The position numbers were made by a program, and so were the translations under genes. The notes beneath the pieces were generated by a model, which was not told the origin of the DNA, did no database searches, and worked only from the letters and a program-made list of their open reading frames with translations. From Parcubacteria group bacterium (GTDB lineage: Bacteria > Patescibacteriota > Minisyncoccia > 2-02-FULL-40-12): a DNA stretch of 64,000 nucleotides. Location: the NCBI GenBank assembly GCA_016186395.1, contig JACPLU010000003.1, positions 148,022 through 212,021 on the forward strand. Direction: 5' to 3'. Positions 1 to 59,255 of this stretch are shown here, in pieces. The stretch's first letter is position 1; each line of letters opens with the position of its first letter.

Positions 1-82
1 AATCTAGTTGTTGATATTGAAATTCCACGGGTACAATCTACATCAAATACATGTTTTTGTTAAGTGTTTTTATCTGAGCTTA

Positions 83-278
83 GTGAATAATACTCTTTCT
101 CTTTCTTCGCAAACCCCAGCGTGGTTTACTCAGGGGTTGAGCCCTTCGCTCTTTCTCTGTCTGGACTAGTAAATCCAGACAGAGAAAACCATGCCCGTCC
201 CGATTTCTGCTCCGCAGAATCGAGGATCCTCGATAGCATCGGGACTACGGGCTCAAAACCCGTTCAAGAGTATTATTC
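83..278 (+). mobile_element. MITE-like element copy 1. It has 16-bp TIRs (GGTGAATAATACTCTT / AAGAGTATTATTCACC family) and two central hairpins.
   Basis: The conserved left arm (TCTCTTTCTTCGCAAACCCCAGCGTGGTTTACTCAGGGGTTGAGCCCTTCGCTC) and right arm (GGGCTCAAAACCCGTTCAAGAGTATTATTC) match those of four other copies in the window. The central hairpin is ctctgtctgga...tccagacagag. Confidence 0.75.
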
Positions 279-287
279 CGTTAAGAG

Positions 288-4001: not shown

Positions 4002-5215
4002 ATATTGTTGGCGGTCTCAAGTATCTTTTCAACATGGTTATGCCAATTAAATTTGGACAACATCATGTTGTTATTGTTGATAATATTTTTTTGTTTTTCG
4101 ATATCTTCTAACGCCGATTTTAATGCTTCGTATATTGAATCGGGATTATCCGGGTTTTTAACAAAGAAAGCTAAATTATCAAAAATCTCTTTTGATAATT
4201 CGTTTTCTGCCACTAGTATCGGTGTTCCGCAAGCAAGGGCTTCTAAGGGTGGCAGTCCTTGTGCTTCAGATGAGGAAATATAAAGCAGGATTTTTGCTTC
4301 TTGATAAAGCTGGATTAGTTCGTTGTCACTGACATCATCAATTTTTGTTATTGCATTATAACTAAGTTCTTGGTTTTTAACTTTAATTAAATTATCAAGA
4401 ATTGGAGGGCGATATTTATCTTTTCCAACGATAATAAGTTTTAATTTGTTGACCGAATTTTTAGAAAATATGCAAAAGGCTTCAATAATTTCTTTAGTCA
4501 TTCTTCTTGGAAAACATTGGCCTACGTTTAATATAAAATTGCCTTTTTTGGATCCTTGGGACGGTTTAAACTTTTGATTATCAACACCAAGAGGATTAAC
4601 AATAATTTTGTCGGCAGTCCTCGGAAATAATTTTGCAAGTTCCTTTTTAGAGTATTCGCTGTTGGTGGTTATTTTGGTAGCATGTCTCATGGCCCAAGTT
4701 GAAAGAACTTTATAGCCAATCTTATGTCTTAAAGCAAGATTGCCGTGTTTAATTTCAAAAAAAACATCGACGGGAAGATGAACTATTGATCTGCCAAAGT
4801 ATAAAATTGGCAACATATTAGCTGGAAAAAACATAACATCAACCTTATCGATTTTAGCCCTTAACGGTAAAAGAACGTTATAGTAAAGAGAAAATGAAGG
4901 TTTTATTAATTTTAAAACTCTTTTTTTAAAAACACTGTTTTTCAAAAAATTCTCTTCGGGTACACGATTTTTGAAGTATAAGAAAAATTCGTTTCCTTTT
5001 TGAAACTCAGAATTTTCCGCGACAGTCTTTAGGATATACTCAATTTGTCTTCCTATTCCCCATCGGGGAGTTTGTTCGAAGTCGTGGCAATCAATACCGA
5101 TTCTCATAAAGCTCTCCAAACAATGGTAGTAAATATGTTTTTCAGCACGCCAGATTTTTCCTGCGAAAATTTGGCTAAGTGCGATTATAAAATCTCTCGA
5201 CATACTCGAGACCAA
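3989..5215 (-). CDS. Glycosyltransferase family 1 (GT4-like)
   Basis: The C-terminal GT-B motif (EAQGLPPLEALACGTPIL) is typical of GT4 enzymes. Confidence 0.8.
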   Translation of the reverse strand: MVSSMSRDFIIALSQIFAGKIWRAEKHIYYHCLESFMRIGIDCHDFEQTPRWGIGRQIEYILKTVAENSEFQKGNEFFLYFKNRVPEENFLKNSVFKKRVLKLIKPSFSLYYNVLLPLRAKIDKVDVMFFPANMLPILYFGRSIVHLPVDVFFEIKHGNLALRHKIGYKVLSTWAMRHATKITTNSEYSKKELAKLFPRTADKIIVNPLGVDNQKFKPSQGSKKGNFILNVGQCFPRRMTKEIIEAFCIFSKNSVNKLKLIIVGKDKYRPPILDNLIKVKNQELSYNAITKIDDVSDNELIQLYQEAKILLYISSSEAQGLPPLEALACGTPILVAENELSKEIFDNLAFFVKNPDNPDSIYEALKSALEDIEKQKNIINNNNMMLSKFNWHNHVEKILETANNICQA

Positions 5216-5257
5216 GCATTTTATAATCGCAATTACTTCAAAACATATTTACTACCA

Positions 5258-6232
5258 TTATTCTATTTTCCCGAATCTATTTTTGTAAAAGTCAATCACC
5301 CCATTAAGTATAGCTAGCGATTCTTTTTTGTTTCTGCCAATTAAAATTTTCAAGGTTTGTTTAAAGATTACCCAAAGACTCCAGGGCCACAAAAGAATCT
5401 TTACCAATATTGGGCCATGTTTTTTATTAAAATAAAGGGCATTTCGGAAGTGATAACGTAAAAGTAGTGGAGAGCCAAGCTTTGAGGTAGAAGATGAAAC
5501 TTTATGCTTTATTTTAGCATCTTCAGCTACTTTGATTTTAAATCCTGCCTTTTGTGCATGTAAGCAAAAATCGGCGTCCTCAAAATATAAAAAATATTCA
5601 TTTGGTAACACTATTTTTTCAAAAACCTCTTTTTTGACTAGCATTGCGGCTCCGGGAATATAGAGATCTTGGGACTTGGATCTTGAGTCGTGAATCATGG
5701 ACTCAGGGTTTGTATTTTGTTCTCCGTGTTCCATATTCCACGTTCCATGTTTCAACTCTGATTTGAGCCATTGGATTCTTCCGCCTTCTACTATCCACCT
5801 ATCGTTATTTTGTGCGTATTCTTCTATAATAGGTCCGACTATGGCAACGTTATTTGATTCAATGGTATGAATTAGTCTTTCAATTGTATTTTTCTCAACC
5901 GCCGCATCATTATTTAGAACAAAAATGTAGTCAGCGTTATTTTCTAGAGCCTTAAGGATTCCAACATTATTTCCCCCGGCATAACCTAGGTTTTTTAGAT
6001 TTTGTATGAACTCTAACCTTGAACTATAGTGATTAGCTTGTTTTTGATAATTTTCAATAAATAACCTTAACTGTTTTGGGGACTCGTCTGTAGAGCCGTT
6101 ATCAATTACCATAATATCCAGATTAAAATTATCTGTTTTTGATTTTAATACCGATTCTATACAGTTAATCGTGTCTGGAAAGTCATTCCAGTTAAGAATA
6201 ATTACGGATGTTTTTTTGAGTAGATTTGGCAT
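5258..6232 (-). CDS. Glycosyltransferase family 2, carrying an in-frame CATG-element insertion
   Basis: The N-terminus (VIILNWNDFPDTINCIESVL ... DNGSTDES) is GT2-like. The low-complexity segment HGTWNMEHGEQNTNPESMIHDSR is encoded by a CATG-rich repeat. Confidence 0.8.
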   Translation of the reverse strand: MPNLLKKTSVIILNWNDFPDTINCIESVLKSKTDNFNLDIMVIDNGSTDESPKQLRLFIENYQKQANHYSSRLEFIQNLKNLGYAGGNNVGILKALENNADYIFVLNNDAAVEKNTIERLIHTIESNNVAIVGPIIEEYAQNNDRWIVEGGRIQWLKSELKHGTWNMEHGEQNTNPESMIHDSRSKSQDLYIPGAAMLVKKEVFEKIVLPNEYFLYFEDADFCLHAQKAGFKIKVAEDAKIKHKVSSSTSKLGSPLLLRYHFRNALYFNKKHGPILVKILLWPWSLWVIFKQTLKILIGRNKKESLAILNGVIDFYKNRFGKIE

Positions 6233-8481: not shown

Positions 8482-8849
8482 GTAGGAAAGTTAAAATTTA
8501 AAATGCAAAATTCAAAATTTAAAACTTGGAATTTACATAGTAAATTTTATCCGTACTTTTGCTTTTTACTTTTTGCCGCCTTTGGTCCAGCCTCGCCTCT
8601 CGCTTACGGCGGGGCTAGTCTTAGACGGCCGGCGGGAGTTTTAATTTATCAATCTAGCAGTTTATTATAAACCTCTCAAGTCCAGCACCACTTTTTTGAA
8701 AAAAGTGGTGCTGGGCAAGCCCCGCACCCCCGCCTGCCGGACGGGCAGGGAGTCCAGCACTGGTTTTCTGTACCCCCATACCTTTTGTTTTACAAAATGT
8801 GTGGGACTGTTCTGGATCTGGTGACGGGGACAAACAAACTAGTTTGGTA

Positions 8850-9003
8850 AAAATAATACTCTTGAACGGGTTTTGAGCCCGTAGCGGGCATGGTTTATCC
8901 CGCCCCAGTTTATTTAAATAAACTGGGGCGGGATAAGAGCGAAGGGCTCAACCTCTGAGCAAACCACGCTGGGGTTTGCGAAGGAAGAGAAAGAGTGTTA
9001 TTT
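8850..9003 (-). mobile_element. MITE-like element copy 2 (reverse orientation)
   Basis: It is the reverse complement of the conserved arms. Its central hairpin (cccgccccagtttatttaaataaactggggcggg) is nearly identical to that of copy 3. Confidence 0.75.
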
Positions 9004-9059
9004 ACCAAACCAACAGACTGATTCTAGCCAAAGACAAAGTTTTATGGTAGTATGAAAAA

Positions 9060-10088
9060 ATGCATAGAATTTCAAGAAGAATAATTTTTTGGATAGCAGT
9101 AGTATTATTTTTATTTGGGAGCTATACGATTATTAAATATGCTCAAGGTTACAGATTTGAAATTCAGGAAATGAGTTTTATAAAAACCGGGGCAATTTTA
9201 CTAAAGACTTTTCCTAAAAAAAGTGAAGTTTTTATTAATCAAAAATTTGTTGATACAACCTCATTAATCAGTGGAGAGTTTACAAAACGTTTTTTGTTGC
9301 CGGATACATACAGTGTTGAGATTAAAAAGAGTGGAAAACAATTATGGCGTAAACAAATTCAGGTTAAAGCGTCAGAAGTGTCTCAATTTTTAAGTATTTA
9401 TTTACCTCCAGAATCTTTAGATTTTAAAAAATCAGATTCGACTGAAGAATATCTGACGAAATCCGTTTCTTTAAACTTTATCACGGAAAGATATTCATTC
9501 AACTCTAGAGATAGAAGGATATATCATTTAAAGGAAAATGGTCAATTAGAAGATATTGAATTGGATGTCCAAAAGGTTATAGATTTTTCAGCGTTACCAT
9601 TTTCTTCTCAATATAGATTTTGGGAGGTTGGTTTTGGTAAGAACAATTTAACCTTTGTTATTTCAAAAGTATCTGCGAAATCAGAAAGTGGTGTCTTGTT
9701 TGTGTTGGAAAATGGTGTGTGGAAACTAATAAATGGTAATGTAAGATCGGTATTTTTATCTAGAGATCAAAAGAAAATTGCAATACTTGGTAAAAATGAA
9801 ATTCTAATTTATTGGTTTGAGGACGAGTTGATACCACCAAATTACTATAAAGGTCAGTTAGAGTTAATAGTTAGGAGATCAGATTCGGTTTCAAAACTTT
9901 TTTGGTTTGATGATGAACATTTACTTTTTCTGTCTGGAGGGAATGTTTTACTTACGGAGGTTGATACAAGGGGTACTAGAAATACCTACGAGTTAGCAAA
10001 AGGGGTAGATGATTTTTTTTACGATCGAGATGGTAACTTGTTAGTTATCAAAAAAGACGGCGAAACATTAATGACTAATTTTGATTAA
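9060..10088 (+). CDS. Hypothetical membrane-anchored protein (342 aa)
   Basis: It has an N-terminal transmembrane helix and no recognisable catalytic motif. Confidence 0.4.
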   Translation: MHRISRRIIFWIAVVLFLFGSYTIIKYAQGYRFEIQEMSFIKTGAILLKTFPKKSEVFINQKFVDTTSLISGEFTKRFLLPDTYSVEIKKSGKQLWRKQIQVKASEVSQFLSIYLPPESLDFKKSDSTEEYLTKSVSLNFITERYSFNSRDRRIYHLKENGQLEDIELDVQKVIDFSALPFSSQYRFWEVGFGKNNLTFVISKVSAKSESGVLFVLENGVWKLINGNVRSVFLSRDQKKIAILGKNEILIYWFEDELIPPNYYKGQLELIVRRSDSVSKLFWFDDEHLLFLSGGNVLLTEVDTRGTRNTYELAKGVDDFFYDRDGNLLVIKKDGETLMTNFD

Positions 10089-14235: not shown

Positions 14236-14349
14236 TTAGCCTTGTCTTTGTTTGTGCTTTTTATTTTCACATATACAATAAAGTCGTCCTTTTCTACGCA
14301 CGATTTTGCACTTATTGCATATTTTTTTAACTGATGCACGTACTTTCAC
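14236..14349 (-). CDS. rpmJ: 50S ribosomal protein L36 (37 aa, GTG start); missed by the 60-aa ORF cutoff
   Basis: Manual minus-strand translation gives (M)[36 protein letters not shown]. This is the canonical L36 zinc-ribbon sequence, in the expected position between infA and rpsM. Confidence 0.75.
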
Positions 14350-14488
14350 CCCCACACCATAACAAGGATAAATATCTTACAGAATTAACTTCAGTATTAT
14401 ATGCATTTCCGTGTTATGGAAAGTTATCCCCCTACAATTCAAATTTTGGACTAAATCCTTGTTTGGTGTGGGGGTTCATTCTTAAAAC

Positions 14489-16514: not shown

Positions 16515-16756
16515 TCCCAGTGCTACAATCTCGACACGTCGTCAAGCCATTTAAGAAATGAGAAAATAACGTGCCAAAATTTATATTTTTAACTTTTGTC
16601 CCAGTGATACAGTACAACTTTCAGAAAATGCAGTCGAAATTGTAGCACTGGGCATTAAATATATTATAATTCAAAGTTATTTTATTTTCCATCACCTTTC
16701 ACATCTTTTTAAGATATCCTCTTTTTTGAATCAGGTTATTTTAGTATTATATTGAT

Positions 16757-25954: not shown

Positions 25955-27829
25955 TTACTCTTTTAGAATAGCTCTAACGCGCCTTATACCTGAACTAACG
26001 GCTTCTTCTCTGATGATTTTAAACTGGCCGATTTCTCCAGTATGAGTAACATGCGGTCCGCCGCAAAGTTCTCGACTGAAAGGAGGTCCTGAGCTAGTCG
26101 AAGGATCTGGTCCCACCGTATAAACTTTTACCACTGGTGGGTATTTTTGTTTGGAAAAGAATAATGCTCCAGATTTTTGGGCTTCTTCAAGTGGCATTTC
26201 TTTAAAAGTTACGGGTAGGTCTTTTTTTATAGCTTCGTTAATTAGATCCTCAACCTGTTTAATCTCTTCGTTTGTCATTTTTCTTGGAAATGTAAAATCA
26301 AAACGTAATCTTTCGGCTGTAATATCAGATCCTGCTTGTTTAACTTCGCCATCCAGTACTTTTCTTAATGCGGCCTGAAGCATATGAGTGGCAGTATGAA
26401 GTTTCGTGACTGTTTTTAATTCTTGTTCGTCAGCGGCCTTTAATTCTCCAGTATCAAGCAGTAACCCATGACCGCCGAATTTTTTTTCTATTCCGGCACG
26501 GGAGAGTTCCTGGTGTTTTTTAAATTCTTTATCAAAATCTTCTCGATTTAGATTTTTAGCTTTTTCTCCGCCTAACTCTTTTATTATTTCATAAGGCAAT
26601 CCAAAACTTTCATAAATTTTGAATGTTCCGGATGCATCAAAGACTGGAATTTTTGCTAATTCTTTGAGTCCACTTTTTAATGTTTTCTCGAATTTTTCTT
26701 TTTCATTGTCAAATTCGTGAATAATTAAATTTCTATCTAAATCATGATAAATTGGGCTGTAGATTTCGTGAATTTTTGCGAAAATATCATGCATAATTGT
26801 TAAATCCATTTTATGGATCTGACCGTAAGTTATAACCCTACGCATTAAACGGCGAAGTATGTAGCCTTGTTCTTTATTTGAAGGTCGTACTCCATCTGTA
26901 ATTAAAAAAGCAATGGCTCGACTGTGATCAGTAATAATTCTTTTTATTCTGGTGTCTTCTATTGGAATAAGGTTTAAAATTGGAGAAAATAGAGCCGTTT
27001 CAAAAATACTTTTTGTATTTTGTGCGATCATAACTAAGCGTTCTAGACCCATCCCCGTATCTATTCCGTTTTTTTCAAGTGGAGTAAGTTTTGTTTTATT
27101 GGAAAGAAGTTGTTCTCGTGAGCCGTTGCAAAAGAATTCGTTAAAAACTATATTCCAAATTTCAACATCCTGTCCTTGAGTATTTTTACAATAAATTTCG
27201 GTTGTTGGTCCACAAGGACCGGAGTTTCCGGTTGGTCCCCAAAATACATCTTCCATACCTTCCTCCCGAATGTCGGATACGCCTAATGATTGCCAGATTT
27301 TTTTTGATTCTTCATCTTTTGGAACAGTCGCTTGTCCTGAGCTTGTGGATTCGACAGGCTCACCACCCTGAGGCTTTGTCGAATGGGTCGAAGAAGATCC
27401 TTTAAAAACTGAAACATGAGAAATCGTTAGCCCCATTTCGTTGGTAATAAATTTATGAGCGTATTCAATCGCTTCTTTTTTAAAGTAGCTTGTCTTAAAT
27501 AGAGTTGAAGGGCCGCCCTTGGCCGAACCATTAGGTTTTAGGCCGAAACTAAAATTTCCAAGCATTTCAAAAAAAGTTAAATGTGATTCGTCCCCTATTT
27601 CGTCAATATCTGATGTGCGCATAGATTTTTGGATTGACACAGTATTTAAAGATCCAAAATCCTTCATTGGATCAGCTTCTCCAGTATAATAGGGTTTAAA
27701 TTGTTGCATTCCGGCAGTTGTAAAAAGAACCGACGGATCATCGGGTAAAAGCGAAGATGAAGGTACAATGGTGTGTCCTTTCTTTTCAAAGAAATCTAGA
27801 AACTTTTTACGGATTTCAGTATGAGTCAC
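25955..27829 (-). CDS. alaS: Alanine--tRNA ligase, compact form (624 aa). It has the catalytic and editing domains but no C-terminal C-Ala domain, and it carries a low-complexity in-frame insertion.
   Basis: FTTAGMQQFKPYY is the class II AlaRS motif. HTATHMLQAALRKVLG and CGGPHV are the editing-domain zinc motifs. The insert GSSSTHSTKPQGGEPVESTSSGQATV is encoded by a GC-rich palindromic element. Confidence 0.85.
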   Translation of the reverse strand: MTHTEIRKKFLDFFEKKGHTIVPSSSLLPDDPSVLFTTAGMQQFKPYYTGEADPMKDFGSLNTVSIQKSMRTSDIDEIGDESHLTFFEMLGNFSFGLKPNGSAKGGPSTLFKTSYFKKEAIEYAHKFITNEMGLTISHVSVFKGSSSTHSTKPQGGEPVESTSSGQATVPKDEESKKIWQSLGVSDIREEGMEDVFWGPTGNSGPCGPTTEIYCKNTQGQDVEIWNIVFNEFFCNGSREQLLSNKTKLTPLEKNGIDTGMGLERLVMIAQNTKSIFETALFSPILNLIPIEDTRIKRIITDHSRAIAFLITDGVRPSNKEQGYILRRLMRRVITYGQIHKMDLTIMHDIFAKIHEIYSPIYHDLDRNLIIHEFDNEKEKFEKTLKSGLKELAKIPVFDASGTFKIYESFGLPYEIIKELGGEKAKNLNREDFDKEFKKHQELSRAGIEKKFGGHGLLLDTGELKAADEQELKTVTKLHTATHMLQAALRKVLDGEVKQAGSDITAERLRFDFTFPRKMTNEEIKQVEDLINEAIKKDLPVTFKEMPLEEAQKSGALFFSKQKYPPVVKVYTVGPDPSTSSGPPFSRELCGGPHVTHTGEIGQFKIIREEAVSSGIRRVRAILKE

Positions 27830-28525: not shown

Positions 28526-28628
28526 GTTTGAGGCATTCGTATTGGCTTGTCCTTCGATAGACTCAGGACCCTGAGCTTGTCGAATGGGTAGATTCGAATT
28601 GTATTGCTGTTTAGGTGGCCAAAGTTCT

Positions 28629-29915
28629 CTAAGTAATTATTCCCCCTCCTAAAACAATATCTTTTTGATAAATTACTGCAGATTGGCCAGGGGTTATGGC
28701 CTTTTGTGGCTTTAGGAACTTTATCGTTCCATTTTTTTTAACTATGGCTTCTTGATCTGGTTGGCGGTAACGAGTTTTAACTGTCACTTTGAACGGAAAG
28801 TCAGGATGGTTATTAGTCCAAGTCATGTTTTTTAATATGGCTGAAGTTTTAAATAATTGGCTTTCTTTGGTTAAGGTATCAACAAAGAGAGTATTTTTTT
28901 TAATATCTTTTCCAGAAACGAAATAAGTTTTTCCATTACCTTGAATATTTAAACCATGACGCTGGCCAATGGTGTAATAATAAATCCCATCGTGCTTACC
29001 GACGGTTTGACCGTTTTTGGCATAAACAATATTTCCCGGTTTTGGTTTTATATAATTTTTTAGAAATTCATTCATTTTTAAATCTCCGACAAAACAAACA
29101 CCTTGGCTCTCTTTTTTATCCCAATTTGGCAAACCGAATTTTTTAGCAAGTTTACGCACCTCTGGTTTGGTATAATCACCTATTGGAAATAAACAATGTT
29201 TTAACTCTTTTTGAGTCAGAGTATATAAAAAGTAAGATTGGTCTTTATTTTGATCCTTACCTTTGTGAAGCTCGAAAGTATAAGACGACAAGCTTTGTGA
29301 GGTAATTTGAGACGGCGCGGGCATGGTTCCGGGTAGAATACCTGGAGAGCGCCGGCTCAACTTAGAGAAATTCCTCGCTGGGGAATTTCTCGTGCCGAAC
29401 AAGACTTGTCGTCTTTTTATCCCGGCGTAATGACCGGTGGCAATATAATCCGCTCCTTCTTTTAATGCCTTTTTTAAAAAAGCCCCAAACTTTATGTGTT
29501 TATTACACATTACATCGGGGTTTGGGGTGAGACCTTGTCGGTATCCGTTAATCATGTAGTTAGTAACCTTTTTTTCATACTCATTTGACAAATCCCAAGT
29601 TAAAATAGGAATTCCTATTTTTGCAGCAACACGCACGGCATCCTCTCGATCTTGTTCCCACATGCAGTTAGTTGTTGGTTGATAGTTGTTCGTTGATAGT
29701 TGGCTTTGCCATGGTTTCATAAAAACTCCGACTACATTGTAGCCCCTAAACCCCTTTGGGGTCGGGCGACCAAATAATCTTTTAAAATTATTTGGTTTAG
29801 CCTGTTTTAGTAAAAAAGCGGCAACAGAGGAATCTACTCCACCAGACATTGCGACATAAACCGTTTTTTGTTCTGACCTTGACATAGTTTTATTTAAGTA
29901 ATAAGATAATATCAT
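28629..29915 (-). CDS. mnmA: tRNA-specific 2-thiouridylase MnmA, with a ~45-aa in-frame insertion
   Basis: The PP-loop SGGVDSSV and CNKHIKFGAFL...ATGHYA are MnmA signatures. The insertion 29282..29415 is bounded by an 11-bp inverted repeat (AAGACGACAAG / CTTGTCGTCTT). Confidence 0.85.
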   Translation of the reverse strand: MILSYYLNKTMSRSEQKTVYVAMSGGVDSSVAAFLLKQAKPNNFKRLFGRPTPKGFRGYNVVGVFMKPWQSQLSTNNYQPTTNCMWEQDREDAVRVAAKIGIPILTWDLSNEYEKKVTNYMINGYRQGLTPNPDVMCNKHIKFGAFLKKALKEGADYIATGHYAGIKRRQVLFGTRNSPARNFSKLSRRSPGILPGTMPAPSQITSQSLSSYTFELHKGKDQNKDQSYFLYTLTQKELKHCLFPIGDYTKPEVRKLAKKFGLPNWDKKESQGVCFVGDLKMNEFLKNYIKPKPGNIVYAKNGQTVGKHDGIYYYTIGQRHGLNIQGNGKTYFVSGKDIKKNTLFVDTLTKESQLFKTSAILKNMTWTNNHPDFPFKVTVKTRYRQPDQEAIVKKNGTIKFLKPQKAITPGQSAVIYQKDIVLGGGIIT

Positions 29916-32236: not shown

Positions 32237-32647
32237 ATGGGATTTTTTATCAAACTATTATTATTTTTAGGCGTTATTGCCGGCATCTATTCATTTTTTG
32301 GCGGCAATACTTTTTCTAATCTAAAAGGGAAAATTATAGAAGTGGTTAGTCCCCCGTCACCTAGAGAAAAACTCGTTAGCAATTTGAGTAATAACTTTAA
32401 TAATTTAGAAGCTCTTATAAACAAATTGGGGTCTGACAGTATTTCTGTCCAAGAAAAGTTCAGTCTTAGCGGTGAGGCTCAAAAACTCGTTCATCAAACA
32501 GAGGATCTGGTTTCTGACCTAAACAATCTTGCTAAAAGTTCTGATAACGGAATATTTAAGACTGTTCTAAATAAAGTTTTGCCACAAACACAAAGTCCTA
32601 CACCCACTAGCGGTTTACAAGTTCAGTGTATTGAGCCTGGTGAATAA
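32237..32647 (+). CDS. Hypothetical secreted protein (136 aa). Its last codons and stop lie within the left TIR of MITE copy 4.
   Basis: N-terminal hydrophobic helix. The ORF ends ...PGE-TAA inside GGTGAATAA. Confidence 0.35.
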   Translation: MGFFIKLLLFLGVIAGIYSFFGGNTFSNLKGKIIEVVSPPSPREKLVSNLSNNFNNLEALINKLGSDSISVQEKFSLSGEAQKLVHQTEDLVSDLNNLAKSSDNGIFKTVLNKVLPQTQSPTPTSGLQVQCIEPGE

Positions 32648-32784
32648 TACTCTTTCTCTTTCTTCGCAAACCCCAGCGTGATTTGCTCAGGGGTTGAGCC
32701 CTTCGCTCTTCCCAAGCTCTTTCTAAAGAGCTTGGAAAACCATGCCCGCTACGGGCTCAAAACCCGTTCAAGAGTATTATTCAC
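32639..32784 (+). mobile_element. MITE-like element copy 4
   Basis: Perfect 16-bp TIRs (GGTGAATAATACTCTT / AAGAGTATTATTCACC). The central hairpin is ccaagctctttctaaagagcttgg. Confidence 0.8.
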
Positions 32785-32986
32785 CAAGTTAAAAGATTTA
32801 ATCGTTTAGTTTGAAAATAATTTAAATACATGTTACGGTGTGGGGATGAATCCCGTAGTGAAAATTCGAATAGATTTACATATGCTAAGTCACTATGGGG
32901 TTTAAGAGATACAATATAAAAGGAGTTTGGATAGTGTTATATAGATTCTAAAAATCATAAAGCATTATTCGAATTTCTACTACGGG

Positions 32987-44075: not shown

Positions 44076-44483
44076 TTAACAGCCAGGGTTATTTTGTAAT
44101 ATTCTACGCTTTTCAATATCTAGTTTTACAAAACTTTCCCATAACCTAGTTCTTTCCTTAGTGCAAAAAGGGGAATAATATCCAAGAAATCCTAAGCCGC
44201 AACTAAAAATAATCATTACAATTAAACTTATTTTCATCAACTCTGGATTTGAGAAAATCTGGTTTGAGTTTGAATTAAATCCTACAGCTAACACTAAACC
44301 GGATAAAATTAAGCCAAGTGCAGCGTCAACAAAAGCGCTAAGCCTTCTTTCTCCTTGTAGAACATATTTTAGTTGTTCTTTTTTTGCTTCTTGGAATTGT
44401 TTTTCTAACATTCTTGAATACTCTTGTTTGTTTACTCCACAATGTAGACAAATTTCCAATTCCGGAAGTAATATTTTTGCCAT
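44076..44483 (-). CDS. Hypothetical membrane protein with an N-terminal CxxC motif
   Basis: CLHCG is followed by two transmembrane helices. Confidence 0.3.
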   Translation of the reverse strand: MAKILLPELEICLHCGVNKQEYSRMLEKQFQEAKKEQLKYVLQGERRLSAFVDAALGLILSGLVLAVGFNSNSNQIFSNPELMKISLIVMIIFSCGLGFLGYYSPFCTKERTRLWESFVKLDIEKRRILQNNPGC

Positions 44484-44529
44484 AAACCCTCCTTTTCAAG
44501 TTTTTATTTTTAAGCTACGCTTTAAGAAT

Positions 44530-45921
44530 ATGCTAACAGATACAAAGAACTCGGTCAAATTATATTTATTTATTCTTATTGGATTAAGTCTTTTGACCAG
44601 GTTTATTTTTTTCTCCTATCCGGCAGAAACAGTATTTGACGAAGTTCATTTCGGGAAATTTATAAGTGCCTATTTTACGGGTGAGTACTATTTTGACATC
44701 CATCCCCCGCTTGGAAAAATGATGATTGCCGGAGTAGCTAAGTTGGTTAATTTCCATCCGGGATTCTCTTTTGAAAATATTGGCCAGAAATTTCCGGATG
44801 CGACTTATCAGTGGTTAAGGTTCCTACCCAAATTATTTGGCGCTGTTTTACCGGTTATTATTTTTCTGTTTGCCCTAGAACTTGGCATTTCTCCTTTATT
44901 TTCATTTCTTGCAGGTTTATTTTTAGTTTTAGATAACGCTTTAATTGCCCAGTCCAGATTTATACTTTTAGATTCTTTTCTTCTGGTTTTCGGTTTTACA
45001 TCTTTACTTTTTTATTTCAAGTCTCTAAAAAAAGAGAAAATTCTATATCTTTTGTTAAGCGGCGTATTTGCAGGCTTAGCCGTTTCTATTAAATGGACTG
45101 GGTTAACCTTTTTGGGGTTAATCTTTGTGGACTATTTTCTAAATCATTTTCAAGAAATTAAAAAGTCGTTATTAAGATTAGCTGTATTTTTAATTTTTAT
45201 TCCTCTGATTTTGTATTTTTCAATTTTTACAGTTCATTTTAAACTATTGCCTCATTCCGGGCCAGGAGATGCATTTCATACTCCGGAGTTTCAAAAAACC
45301 TTATTTGGATCTAAATATGCACTAGACAATAATGTTAAGTCATTGCCATTGCCAAAAAAGTTTATTGGGTTGAATAAGGAAATGTTTAGAGCAAATGCCG
45401 GGCTTGCCTCAACTCATCCATACGCCAGTAAATGGTATCAATGGCCGTTTATGACAAGACCGATTTATTATTGGAATGGAGCTGAAAATAATAACGCCAG
45501 GATTTACTTTTTTGGCAATCCTTTTATTTGGTGGGCCGCAACAGTTGGAATTATTATTTCGTTTTTAGAATTAATTAAGCAATTTTGGTTCTTTTTAAGA
45601 AGACAACAACCGATTTCGGGTATGTTTAGCGGGCCATTGTTAATACTTTTATTTGGGTATTGTTTAAATCTTTTACCTTTTATTGGGATTTCAAGAGTTA
45701 TGTTTTTGTATCATTATCTTTCAGCTCTTATTTTTTCTATTTTGATCTTAGCTCTTTTACTTGAGCAGAATAAAAACAGTAAATTTTTAAGTTTTCCTAT
45801 TTGGAAAGTTTTACTTGTTGGAGCTGTTGTGTTTTTCTTAATATTCTCTCCTTTGTCTTATGGATTACCTCTATTGCCTACAAACTACGAGCATTTAGTT
45901 TGGTTTCCAAGTTGGAGGTAG
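44530..45921 (+). CDS. PMT-family (GT39-like) lipid-carrier-dependent glycosyltransferase
   Basis: It is a polytopic membrane protein. AETVFDEVHFGKF...FDIHPPLGK is the PMT/ArnT-type loop-1 motif. Confidence 0.7.
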   Translation: MLTDTKNSVKLYLFILIGLSLLTRFIFFSYPAETVFDEVHFGKFISAYFTGEYYFDIHPPLGKMMIAGVAKLVNFHPGFSFENIGQKFPDATYQWLRFLPKLFGAVLPVIIFLFALELGISPLFSFLAGLFLVLDNALIAQSRFILLDSFLLVFGFTSLLFYFKSLKKEKILYLLLSGVFAGLAVSIKWTGLTFLGLIFVDYFLNHFQEIKKSLLRLAVFLIFIPLILYFSIFTVHFKLLPHSGPGDAFHTPEFQKTLFGSKYALDNNVKSLPLPKKFIGLNKEMFRANAGLASTHPYASKWYQWPFMTRPIYYWNGAENNNARIYFFGNPFIWWAATVGIIISFLELIKQFWFFLRRQQPISGMFSGPLLILLFGYCLNLLPFIGISRVMFLYHYLSALIFSILILALLLEQNKNSKFLSFPIWKVLLVGAVVFFLIFSPLSYGLPLLPTNYEHLVWFPSWR

Positions 45922-45972: not shown

Positions 45973-46323
45973 ATGATCAAACAAAACTTTCATCAAAATC
46001 TCAGGGATAAAATAAATACTTATATTCATTTAGTGTACAAAGTAACTAAAGAATTTCCTCGTGAGGAAACATACGGAGTGACGTCCCAACTAAGGAGGTC
46101 TGCACTTTCGGTTATGTTAAACTATATCGAGGGATACGCAAGATTTAAAACCAAAGTTCATAAGAACTTTTTAGAGATTGCTTACGGCTCACTTCAGGAG
46201 TCTAAATATATTCTTGAATTTTCGCTCGAAGAAGAATTTATGAAAAAAGATAAATATATAAAATTAGCCCACTTAGCAGATGAAATCGGAGTTATGTTGT
46301 GGGGAATTATTACTAAATTATGA
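45973..46323 (+). CDS. Four-helix-bundle protein
   Basis: YKVTKEFPREETYGVTSQLRRSALSVMLNYIEGYAR is characteristic of the family named after 23S rRNA intervening-sequence proteins. Confidence 0.7.
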   Translation: MIKQNFHQNLRDKINTYIHLVYKVTKEFPREETYGVTSQLRRSALSVMLNYIEGYARFKTKVHKNFLEIAYGSLQESKYILEFSLEEEFMKKDKYIKLAHLADEIGVMLWGIITKL

Positions 46324-54964: not shown

Positions 54965-55114
54965 GGTGAATAATACTCTTTCTCTTTCTTCGCAAACCCC
55001 AACGTGGTTTGCTCAGGGATTGAGCCCTTCGCTCTTCCACCATCTGATTTAAAACCAGATGGTGAAAACCATGCCCACTACGGGCTCAAAACCCGTTCAA
55101 AAGTATTATTCACC
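54965..55114 (+). mobile_element. MITE-like element copy 5, inserted between znuC-like and znuB-like genes of the same operon
   Basis: Perfect TIRs GGTGAATAATACTCTT / AAAAGTATTATTCACC. The central hairpin is caccatctgatttaaaaccagatggtg. Confidence 0.8.
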
Positions 55115-55119
55115 AAACT

Positions 55120-58865: not shown

Positions 58866-59255
58866 AAAACATAAAAAAACCTTAAGTTTCGGATTCGTGT
58901 CATTCTTAAACTAGGTTTACTATATTTATTATATCAAAATTTGGAGGTTTATAGAAGTCCACGGGCTTACCTTGCTTCGCCGAGGCTACGCAAGACGAGC
59001 GCCCGTGGTACTCCAAGGAGTACAGGATTGATTTTGAAAAGATATTGATGCTTTTCAAAATCAATCCTGACTTATATAATTTCCCTACGCTCGCTTGCGC
59101 TCGCTTCGGGGCTGTCATTCATCCCCGAGCTGACGCTCGGGGTTTTCTGACAGGAATTATAAAGTAGTCTATGTCCACACGCAAAACAATGTTTATTTGA
59201 CATAAAACTATTCTTATGTTATATAAATTACATTGCAATTTACCAACTTTAAGGA

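What the first reader, a model, noticed from the sequence alone, without database searches (positions are those of the whole stretch)
29282..29415. A ~134-bp in-frame insertion in mnmA bounded by an 11-bp perfect inverted repeat
Seen in the sequence: AAGACGACAAG at 29282-29292 and CTTGTCGTCTT at 29405-29415 flank a GC-rich segment that carries several internal hairpins, including gaaattcctcgctggggaatttc. The whole segment is translated as part of MnmA, between the conserved ATGHYA block and the KDQSYFL block.

This is the clearest TIR-bounded example of the GC-rich in-frame elements. It shares the GACAAGC core with the other copies.
Basis: seen in the sequence. Interest (0 to 1): 0.5.

Follow-up and report, generated by a model that had tools for sequence, protein, structure and literature searches.

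The report
Palindromic repeat translated inside MnmA loop
A 133-base, GC-rich, strongly folding repeat element of a Parcubacteria (CPR) genome sits in frame inside the tRNA-thiolation gene mnmA and is read as a 44-residue floppy surface loop, much as the palindromic elements of Rickettsia are, so it is a new example of a known oddity and not a new kind of system.

Summary
AAGACGACAAG (29282-29292) and CTTGTCGTCTT (29405-29415) are a perfect 11-bp inverted repeat around nested hairpins (fold z about -7 to -8), inside the minus-strand mnmA ORF. The coding increment is 132 nt, 44 codons (29283-29414), not 134.

Five intergenic copies lie in the same window and relatives occur in two other AT-rich metagenome contigs. 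All share a Y-shaped four-helix fold. Its conserved unpaired motifs are CCAGCGN, CGCTCT and AACCATGCCCG. Stem sequences differ but stay complementary (91% of cells paired, 40 of 46 pairs changed on both sides).

The closest MnmA orthologue lacks the insert. AlphaFold places it as a low-confidence loop in a beta-hairpin turn, where solved MnmA structures have 3 residues.

That turn is an insertion hotspot: 81 of 120 Parcubacteria orthologues carry at least 8 extra residues there. The same family occupies the same turn in two other lineages, once in the opposite orientation.

Best reading: a non-autonomous palindromic repeat, like Rickettsia RPEs or MITEs, tolerated and translated in a permissive loop. 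I found no transposase, no target-site duplication and no Rfam match. How it moves is unknown.

The parts
29282..29415 (-). Family-1 palindromic element copy inside mnmA. The element orientation (CCCCAGCG...AACCATGCCCG) is the sense strand of the gene.
   Evidence: Inverted repeats; fold z -7.2 and -8.4; covariance model R1 hit at 29282-29414(-), 72.8 bits, E 1.8e-14, full model length; alignment with the five intergenic copies.
29283..29414 (-). The 44 extra codons (RRQVLFGTRNSPARNFSKLSRRSPGILPGTMPAPSQITSQSLSS), which are residues 158-201 of the annotated MnmA (P0001).
   Evidence: Codon-level comparison with the empty-site orthologue L017/P0002. Only 1 of 6 frames of the element is open, and it is the one in use. 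pLDDT is 38-58 over residues 161-200, with no secondary structure, flanked by strands 154-160 and 202-208. Solved MnmA chains have 3 residues where the query has 43.
29399..29415 (-). P1 outer stem, 5' arm in element orientation. It contains the 11-bp perfect repeat at 29405-29415.
   Evidence: I1; P1 pairs.
29282..29298 (-). P1 outer stem, 3' arm. Its plus strand carries CGACAAGCT, which is shared with the short REP-like unit.
29365..29391 (-). P2 hairpin: a 10-bp stem with the family-conserved 7-nt loop CCAGCGA (plus-strand TCGCTGG at 29375-29381).
   Evidence: I3. The loop is conserved while the stem differs in every lineage.
29303..29364 (-). P3 stem (29303-29318 with 29349-29364). It encloses the P4 hairpin (29329-29345) and the conserved unpaired motifs AACCATGCCCG (plus-strand CGGGCATGGTT at 29318-29328) and CGCTCT (29346-29351).
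   Evidence: I2; motif positions; conservation.
28629..29915 (-). mnmA, tRNA 2-thiouridine(34) synthase. The annotated protein P0001 starts at 29885.
82..282 (+). Intergenic family-1 copy, with an extra 47-nt hairpin inserted after AACCATGCCCG.
   Evidence: R1 hit of 133.4 bits; alignment.
8847..9006 (-). Intergenic family-1 copy, between mreB and ORF 9060..10088.
   Evidence: R1 hit of 149.7 bits; ORF context.
23479..23637 (+). Intergenic family-1 copy, starting 10 nt after the stop of the 1881-aa RHS/Kelch ORF. It carries a compensatory C-G to T-A change in P3.
   Evidence: R1 hit of 162 bits.
32639..32786 (+). Intergenic family-1 copy, overlapping the stop of ORF 32237..32647.
   Evidence: R1 hit of 169.4 bits.
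54965..55115 (+). Intergenic family-1 copy between two minus-strand ABC-transporter genes.
   Evidence: R1 hit of 159.4 bits.
5125..5257 (+). AT-rich distant relative ('family 2') with the same Y-shaped layout. It has a 20-bp outer inverted repeat, a P2-like hairpin with loop TCCTGCG, and ACCAAGC in the inner loop.
   Evidence: R1 with filters off: 34.2 bits, E 1.1e-5, full model length; fold and sequence.

Best explanation
The segment is one copy of a family of small (about 130-200 bp), GC-rich, non-autonomous palindromic repeat elements of Parcubacteria.

The elements fold, on either strand, into a Y shape with four helices:
- a long outer stem, P1, made by the two ends;
- a hairpin, P2, with the conserved 7-nt loop CCAGCGN;
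- a stem, P3, that encloses a variable hairpin, P4, and the conserved unpaired strands CGCTCT and AACCATGCCCG.

Most copies are intergenic. This copy lies in the turn of a beta-hairpin in the catalytic domain of MnmA. It adds exactly 44 codons without a stop, so it is carried and translated as a disordered surface loop that the enzyme tolerates.

Shown here: family membership, the fold and its conservation through compensatory changes, absence of the insert from the nearest orthologue, and placement in a loop.

Inferred: that the element arrived by some form of transposition or copying, since the enzyme and mechanism were not identified. Also inferred: that only frame-preserving, stop-free copies survive in genes, and that this loop collects such inserts because it is structurally permissive. 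Stem complementarity is kept either by selection on the folded nucleic acid, needed for the element's own propagation, or mutationally by replication template switching between the arms. Template switching can also invert the interior.
For: - Family membership: hand alignment and covariance model R1 give six full-length copies in the 64-kb window. Real relatives occur in metagenome contigs L003/L006 and L008.
- Fold: 93.5% of cells paired on 8 distinct sequences and 91.2% on 11. Of 46 pairs, 34 and then 40 changed on both sides. No shuffle of 500 reached these values, and slid controls gave 31-49%.
- Not ancestral: P0002/L017, the closest orthologue, has KTK at the site.
- Loop placement: AlphaFold2 mean pLDDT is 85.5, but 38-58 across the insert, which lies between two strands. 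The PDB MnmA alignment skips query residues 160-202 against 3 chain residues.
- Frame filter: only the frame in use is open among the six.
- Hotspot: 81 of 120 orthologues have at least 8 extra residues at this turn and 45 have at least 20.
- The same family sits in the same turn in L013 (E 2.6e-7, same orientation) and in L012 and L015 (E 2e-6 and 6e-3, opposite orientation).
- Independent assembly confirms the allele.
- Precedent: Rickettsia RPEs are 105-146 bp, have terminal inverted repeats, are fused in frame in many genes and are tolerated by the enzymes (PMC2229807, PMC10969869). Intragenic REPs are also known (PMC3733652).
Against: - No target-site duplication at the mnmA junction or at the five intergenic copies (by inspection).
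- No autonomous element with matching ends in the window.
- No transposase, integrase, reverse transcriptase or HUH domain in 65 window ORFs.
- No empty/filled pair among close strains was available, so mobility itself is not shown.
- The mnmA copy is only 42-51% identical to every other copy. It is therefore old, and 'insertion' could date to a distant ancestor.
- Translated copies of the family were detected only in MnmA proteins: 7 hits, all PF03054. A purely random-insertion picture does not predict this, although that search was only sensitive to close relatives of the query peptides.
Confidence: 0.75

Rival explanations
1. Site-preferring (homing-like) structured element. The family, and its family-2 relatives, would be recognised as folded single-stranded DNA or RNA through the CCWGCGN loop and the ACCATGCCCG strand by an unidentified enzyme. 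It would insert repeatedly at this particular spot of mnmA, or into a palindrome already resident there.
For: - The same family lies within about 3 nt of the same position in three MnmA lineages that are only 64-71% identical to their nearest neighbours lacking it.
- Both orientations occur.
- P0038, a member of the P0056 clade (79-82% identical), has a different Y-shaped element at the same site.
- L013(+) is closer to L015(-) (66%) than L012(-) is to L015(-) (55%), although the L012 and L015 hosts are 82% identical.
- The translated family was found only in MnmA.
- Conserved loop motifs sit on covarying stems.
Against: - The five recent copies in this genome are intergenic, at unrelated sites with no shared flanking motif.
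- Unrelated sequences, including low-complexity AAATCCC repeats, also fill the same turn. That fits a permissive loop and not specific targeting.
- A second MnmA turn is also a hotspot: 41 of 120 orthologues.
- Opposite orientation and arm differences can arise in place by template switching (PMC8604942).
- No candidate enzyme was found.
Confidence: 0.15
2. A functional structured RNA (or DNA) module kept by the host. It might be an mRNA stability, processing or translation-pausing element within mnmA and in intergenic transcripts, and not selfish DNA.
For: - Very stable fold.
- Strong covariation in four helices with conserved unpaired motifs.
- Persistence in MnmA across a clade: P0056, P0069, P0085, P0121, P0122.
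Against: - Copies lie in both orientations relative to neighbouring genes and relative to mnmA.
- Pairs are about 90% Watson-Crick, with only 8 G.T against 17 A.C and 23 other mismatches, so there is no RNA-type wobble signature and no strand preference (p=0.11).
- No Rfam family matches, even at E up to 10.
- Most orthologues, including the nearest, do without it.
Confidence: 0.1
3. A lineage-specific protein segment shaped by selection on the peptide, with the inverted repeat incidental.
For: The frame is open and the segment sits in a known variable loop.
Against: - Intergenic copies of the same sequence family exist.
- The peptide is predicted disordered.
- Orthologous inserts in the opposite orientation encode unrelated peptides.
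- The conservation pattern follows base pairing, not codons.
Confidence: 0.03
4. An intervening sequence removed after transcription or translation: a small intron, ribozyme or mini-intein.
For: It has a compact, conserved multi-helix fold, and CPR genomes are known (my own knowledge) to carry many introns in rRNA genes.
Against: - At 133 nt it is far below group I or II intron size, and no intron or ribozyme family matches.
- Every MnmA-borne copy examined preserves the frame and has no stop. Excision would not require this, although gene callers would split disrupted genes, so there is some ascertainment bias.
- Opposite orientations at one site cannot both be a strand-specific ribozyme.
- 44 low-complexity residues lack intein size and motifs.
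Confidence: 0.02

Closest known systems
Rickettsia palindromic elements (RPE-1 to RPE-10; Ogata et al. 2000, 2002, as summarised in PMC2229807 and PMC10969869)
   Same: They are 105-146 bp with terminal inverted repeats of about 12 bp and a stable predicted stem-loop. They form several families, with copies both intergenic and fused in frame inside conserved housekeeping genes. The insertions are compatible with the protein fold. No clear target-site duplication and no known transposase. They occur in small, AT-rich, reduced genomes.
   Different: The host phylum differs: CPR/Parcubacteria here, Alphaproteobacteria there. Sequence homology was not tested. Only one of six window copies is intragenic here, whereas RPE-1 is often intragenic. 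Here the fold is a four-helix Y with conserved loop motifs, not a plain long hairpin. The same family also recurs at one loop of one protein in several lineages and in both orientations.
Intragenic REPs and REP dimers, GTAG- or CGTC-tagged (Di Nocera et al. 2013, PMC3733652)
   Same: These are GC-rich palindromic repeats that are mainly extragenic, with some copies entirely inside ORFs encoding 20-30 extra residues, probably in loops. CGTC-type REPs lack a dedicated transposase. The mnmA copy's outer arms read ..GACG.../...CGTC.., and the window also holds a short REP-like unit, CCTGAGCTTGTCGAA, with 9 copies including some inside alaS.
   Different: REP units are single hairpins of 20-40 bp. 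This element is 133 nt with four helices. The CGTC tag is not conserved in the other family copies. No RAYT gene was seen in the window.
Bacterial MITEs such as Correia/NEMIS, ERIC, RUP, QMITE (PMC2229807, PMC10969869)
   Same: Small size, terminal inverted repeats, stable transcript structures, dispersed copies and occasional in-frame fusions.
   Different: Classical MITEs are AT-rich, show target-site duplications (often TA) and can be tied to a parent IS. Here the element is GC-rich in a 36% GC genome. No duplication is visible and no parent IS is in the window.
Inverted repeats maintained by replication template switching (PMC8794818, PMC8604942)
   Same: This mechanism offers a mutational route to the two most striking features: arms that change yet stay complementary, and inversion of the interior at a fixed site.
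   Different: Documented spacer inversions are a few bases long, whereas here the interior is about 100 nt. Template switching does not explain conserved unpaired motifs or dispersed copies.

Membership tests
Protein-coding palindromic repeats of the RPE kind | Repeat of about 100-150 bp whose ends are inverted repeats and which folds into a stable stem-loop | tested here: met
   133-134 nt; 11-bp perfect and 17-nt extended inverted repeat; fold z -7.2 and -8.4.
Protein-coding palindromic repeats of the RPE kind | Several dispersed copies in one genome, both intergenic and intragenic | tested here: met
   Six covariance-model hits in 64 kb: five intergenic and one in mnmA.
Protein-coding palindromic repeats of the RPE kind | Intragenic copy keeps the host reading frame with no stop and is absent from orthologues | tested here: met
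   44 codons; only the frame in use is open; the closest orthologue lacks it. Actual translation is not testable with these tools.
Protein-coding palindromic repeats of the RPE kind | Insertion point on the protein surface or in a loop, compatible with the fold | tested here: met
   AlphaFold2 shows a low-pLDDT coil between two hairpin strands while the rest of the model is confident. Solved MnmA structures have 3 residues there. This rests on prediction only.
Protein-coding palindromic repeats of the RPE kind | Sequence homology to a named Rickettsia RPE family | not tested
   No RPE sequences were available in the tools. I therefore claim 'works like an RPE', not membership of an RPE family.
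Classical MITE (deletion derivative of an IS) | Terminal inverted repeats | tested here: met
   The main family ends are GGTGAATAATACTCTT / AAGAGTATTATTCACC.
Classical MITE (deletion derivative of an IS) | Target-site duplication flanking the element | tested here: not met
   No direct repeat at the mnmA junctions (ATAAAA|...|TATACT) or around the five intergenic copies. The flanks tend instead to extend the palindrome. Old copies may have lost a duplication.
Classical MITE (deletion derivative of an IS) | Parent IS or transposase with matching ends | tested here: inconclusive
   All strong matches to the end sequence belong to the five copies. No transposase domain in 65 window ORFs. The rest of the genome could not be searched.
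REP / REPIN mobilised by a RAYT | 20-40 bp single hairpin unit with a GTAG or CGTC tag, often in inverted dimers, and a RAYT gene in the genome | tested here: not met
   The element is a 133-nt four-helix structure. CGTC occurs only in the mnmA copy's arms. No Y1 transposase in the window. A separate short REP-like unit does exist in the window.
Any curated structured RNA, ribozyme or intron (Rfam 15) | Covariance-model match | tested here: not met
   No hit at gathering thresholds in the whole window. Only meaningless miRNA-hairpin matches at E up to 10 on the mnmA copy and on copy 23479-23637.
Integron attC site | 5' RYYYAAC ... GTTRRRY 3' core sites on a folded strand, in cassette arrays next to an integrase | tested here: not met
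   GTTGAGC...GCTCAA(AA)C occurs, but in the reverse order on both strands (by inspection). There is no cassette array and no integrase.

The most novel reading that the evidence does not exclude
The Y-shaped elements are a superfamily with P2 loop CCWGCGN and inner-loop strand ACCAWGC(CCG). They may be substrates of an as yet unrecognised enzyme that reads folded single-stranded nucleic acid. They would insert, flip or replace one another preferentially at one spot of mnmA. The recurrent occupation of this hairpin turn across Parcubacteria would then reflect targeting, or a functional link with MnmA, and not mere tolerance.
Probability: 0.15. Interest if true: 0.75.

Novelty: new member of a known kind. 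Interest (0 to 1): 0.45.

Why it matters
It extends 'selfish DNA inside protein-coding genes', best known from Rickettsia, to the Candidate Phyla Radiation. My full-text searches found no such description there.

It gives a concrete, checkable family: a covariance model, conserved motifs, six copies in 64 kb and metagenomic relatives.

It shows that one beta-hairpin turn of MnmA is a hotspot that two thirds of the sampled Parcubacteria orthologues have filled. Practically, it explains part of the odd length variation and the GC-rich islands in CPR genes, and it warns against reading such loops as functional domains.

The open questions are how the element moves, and why stems stay paired while their sequences turn over. 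These can be tested with a genome-wide census and with comparison of close strains.

Tried and rejected
- **Rfam.** The whole window at gathering thresholds gave nothing. Two elements at E up to 10 gave only miRNA-like hairpin noise. ARAGORN found no tRNA or tmRNA.
- **Public collection scans.** The pattern scan of genome contigs gave 2 chance hits in GC-rich genomes and did not contain the source genome. The metagenome scan gave 3 real and 3 chance loci. Viral contigs gave 0.
- **Walking outward along the source contig.** One edge protein was not on record. The other gave only short Logan contigs with no new copy.
- **Parent IS.** A search for the family's end sequence found none.
- **Pfam.** 65 window ORFs gave no transposase, integrase, reverse transcriptase or HUH domain.
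- **Folding strand.** G.T versus A.C mismatch counts were 4:12 on 8 sequences (p about 0.04) but 8:17 on 11 (p=0.11). I dropped this as evidence.
- **Pseudoknot.** I considered one between the P2 loop (AGCG) and CGCT of CGCTCT. There is no covariation, and two copies break it (by inspection), so I do not claim it.
- **HDV-like ribozyme.** The complementary strand resembles one (GGGCATGGTT...GCGCCGGCTC), but the required P2 partner is absent from the main family and Rfam HDV models do not match. Rejected.
- **tRNA anticodon-loop mimicry by P2.** Considered, but there is no U33-like position. Rejected.
- **Six-frame plus MnmA-insert multi-peptide protein search.** It returned only MnmA proteins, with no other host genes.
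- **Ogata et al. 2002 (PMC186582).** The paper is not held.
Full report
**Observation.** The window is 35.7% GC. The minus-strand ORF 28629..29915 encodes MnmA (PF03054, PF20259, PF20258). NCBI annotates it in a 'Parcubacteria group bacterium' MAG on a 239-kb contig (P0001).
- AAGACGACAAG (29282-29292) and CTTGTCGTCTT (29405-29415) are a perfect inverted repeat that extends to 17 nt at 88% complementarity.
- Two further repeats are nested inside it: 29303-29318 with 29349-29364, and 29365-29374 with 29382-29391.
- The segment is 53-55% GC.
- It folds far better than shuffled versions: RNA -56.7 kcal/mol, z=-7.2; DNA z=-8.4; 0 of 200 shuffles as good in either case.
- An 11-bp repeat alone would not be remarkable. 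The window has 35 such repeats within 200 nt, against about 7.7 in random sequence.
- In coding terms the extra piece is 44 codons, 29283-29414. The outermost A and T of the repeat belong to the neighbouring Lys and Tyr codons.
- An independent Logan assembly encodes the identical protein.

**What it is.** Read on the mnmA sense strand, the insert shares a string of motifs with five intergenic repeats in the same window. These are at 82-282(+), 8847-9006(-), 23479-23637(+), 32639-32786(+) and 54965-55115(+).
- The shared motifs, in order, are CCCCAGCG, GTTGAGCC, CGCTCT, a variable hairpin, AACCATGCCCG and CTCAAA.
- A pattern built from those motifs found real relatives in AT-rich metagenome contigs (L003, which equals L006, and L008). 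It found only chance hits in GC-rich genomes and nothing in viral contigs.
- I wrote a four-helix structure on the alignment and built covariance model R1 from it.
- R1 recovers the six window copies and the metagenomic ones. The mnmA copy scores 72.8 bits over the full model, E about 1e-14; it was one of the eight sequences the model was built from, so that score is inflated.
- With filters off, R1 also picks up an AT-rich relative at 5125-5257 (34.2 bits). It has the same layout, a P2 loop TCCTGCG and inner-loop ACCAAGC.

**The fold.** It has four helices.
- P1 is formed by the two ends.
- P2 is a hairpin with the conserved 7-nt loop CCAGCGN.
- P3 encloses a variable hairpin, P4.
- The unpaired strands CGCTCT and AACCATGCCCG lie inside P3.

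Across 11 sequences, 91.2% of cells are standard pairs and 40 of 46 pairs show changes on both sides. No shuffle of 500 reaches the observed values, and sliding the partners drops pairing to 31-49% (8-sequence version). These alignments were fitted by the model, which favours the structure, but the margin is large. Individual cases are visible by eye:
- P2 stems CAAACC/GGTTTG, GAGAAATTCC/GGAATTTCTC and GCCGCC/GGCGGC all sit under the same loop.
- Copy 23479-23637 has a C-G to T-A swap in P3.

Pairs are about 90% Watson-Crick. There are only 8 G.T, against 17 A.C and 23 other mismatches. So there is no RNA-style wobble signature and no significant strand preference (p=0.11). The fold is equally available to both strands and to DNA. 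No Rfam family matches.

**Place in the protein.** Among 117 Parcubacteria orthologues with both flanking motifs, the TGHY-to-DQSYFL spacing ranges from 16 residues (22 proteins) to 61 (ours).
- The nearest relative, P0002, is 78% identical outside the loop and has KTK where ours has the 44 residues.
- Solved MnmA structures (9hlv, 2hma, 2der) align on both sides, with 3 residues opposite our residues 160-202.
- AlphaFold2 on a 50-sequence alignment gives mean pLDDT 85.5. The insert is coil at pLDDT 38-58, between strands 154-160 and 202-208.
- Of the six frames of the element, only the one in use is open.

**Recurrence.** The hairpin turn is the main insertion hotspot of the protein. Of 120 orthologues, 81 carry at least 8 extra residues there and 45 carry at least 20. 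A second turn, after KPWQPE, is filled in 41. I fetched DNA for several long-loop orthologues.
- L013 (P0064) carries the same family in the same orientation (R1 E 2.6e-7).
- L012 (P0056) and L015 (P0085) carry it in the opposite orientation (E 2e-6 and 6e-3).
- By peptide, P0069, P0121 and P0122 belong with L012 and L015.
- All four MnmA-borne copies are 133-134 nt, and their start points fall within 3 nt of each other.
- P0038, from the same clade as P0056, has a different Y-shaped element at the site. Its hairpin loop is TCCTGCG, like the window's 5125-5257 copy.
- L011 has yet another GC-rich palindromic insert.
- L014 has mostly low-complexity AAATCCC repeats.

Our copy is 42-51% identical to every other copy, so it is old and not specially related to the other MnmA-borne ones.

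**How it most likely works.** Shown: it is a dispersed, strongly folding repeat, absent from the nearest orthologue, frame-preserving and placed in a predicted loop. Inferred: it is a non-autonomous, selfish palindromic element whose copies survive in genes only when they add a stop-free multiple of three to a permissive loop. This is the behaviour described for Rickettsia RPEs: 105-146 bp, about 12-bp terminal repeats, in-frame fusions in many genes, and an RPE-bearing Gmk that is still active (PMC2229807, PMC10969869). It is also described for intragenic REPs (PMC3733652).

The means of spread is unknown.
- No target duplication is visible.
- No parent IS is in the window.
- No transposase, integrase, reverse transcriptase or HUH domain is present in 65 window ORFs.

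The maintained complementarity may reflect selection on the folded form. It may instead reflect replication template switching, which homogenises the arms of inverted repeats and can invert the spacer (PMC8794818, PMC8604942). Template switching would also account for opposite orientations at one site without a second insertion. However, documented inversions are only a few bases long.

**Rivals.**
- A site-preferring, homing-like element is not excluded (about 0.15). The same family sits at the same spot in three lineages, there is turnover within one clade, and translated copies were found only in MnmA. Against it, the recent copies in this genome are intergenic at unrelated sites, and unrelated sequences fill the same turn.
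- A host-beneficial RNA module (about 0.1) is disfavoured by mixed orientations and the lack of a strand signal.
- A peptide-selected domain, an intron or intein, and an assembly artefact are each contradicted.

**Novelty.** The kind is known. Its occurrence in CPR, this particular four-helix family, and the MnmA hotspot appear not to have been described in the searchable literature. I file it as a new member of a known kind, of moderate interest.

Noticed in passing
window 13309, 26088, 27336, 27350, 28553, 28570, 34154, 41502, 42145: A short REP-like unit, CCTGAGCTTGTCGAA, has 9 matches at up to 3 mismatches against 0.94 expected. It often occurs as inverted pairs (28553-28584; 27336-27364). 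Three copies (26088, 27336, 27350) lie inside alaS (25955..27829, minus strand), where they coincide with GC-rich stretches coding PSTSSG-like peptides. The mnmA element's outer arm shares CGACAAGCT with this unit.
   Followed up: partly
window 5122-5268: An AT-rich Y-shaped palindromic element spans the junction between two glycosyltransferase ORFs. It has a 20-bp outer inverted repeat, a hairpin with loop TCCTGCG and a second hairpin followed by ACCAAGC. It is a structural relative of the mnmA element family and resembles the insert in the MnmA loop of L016 (P0038).
   Followed up: partly
window 29735-29800: A second palindromic stretch lies in mnmA: CCCCTAAACCCCTTTGGGGTCGGG and CCAAATAATCTTTTAAAATTATTTGG. 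It encodes about 18 residues (AKPNNFKRLFGRPTPKGF) that are absent from solved MnmA structures, so it may be another in-frame insert.
   Followed up: partly
MnmA orthologues; L011 1412-1579: Many Parcubacteria MnmA proteins carry other recurrent insert types in the same turn. One is an RRGPV...HPF type (P0030, P0032, P0051, P0052, P0063, P0065, P0106). Another is an IPNPKSQIPNKSKI-like low-complexity type. A second hotspot lies after KPWQPE (41 of 120 orthologues).
   Followed up: partly
window 8555-8793 and 58941-59161: Two intergenic stretches with local GC up to 0.68-0.75 in a 36% GC genome contain long perfect hairpins (16 bp at 8682-8719; 19 bp at 59023-59077). Neither has an Rfam match.
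   Followed up: no
window 16516-16655, 45348-45522, 14348-14476, 22891-22997: Further AT-rich segments of 110-190 nt are bounded by 12-14-bp perfect inverted repeats. Two of them lie inside long ORFs (PMT-family 44428..45921 and the 1881-aa RHS/Kelch ORF). They may be other element families or chance.
   Followed up: no
window 45973-46323: An ORF matches the 23S rRNA-intervening-sequence protein / bAvd-like four-helix bundle (PF05635, PF22296). No reverse transcriptase is nearby.
   Followed up: no
window 82-282: This family-1 copy carries an extra 47-nt hairpin (TCCCGAT...ATCGGGA) inserted right after AACCATGCCCG. That shows this point of the element tolerates nested insertions.
   Followed up: no
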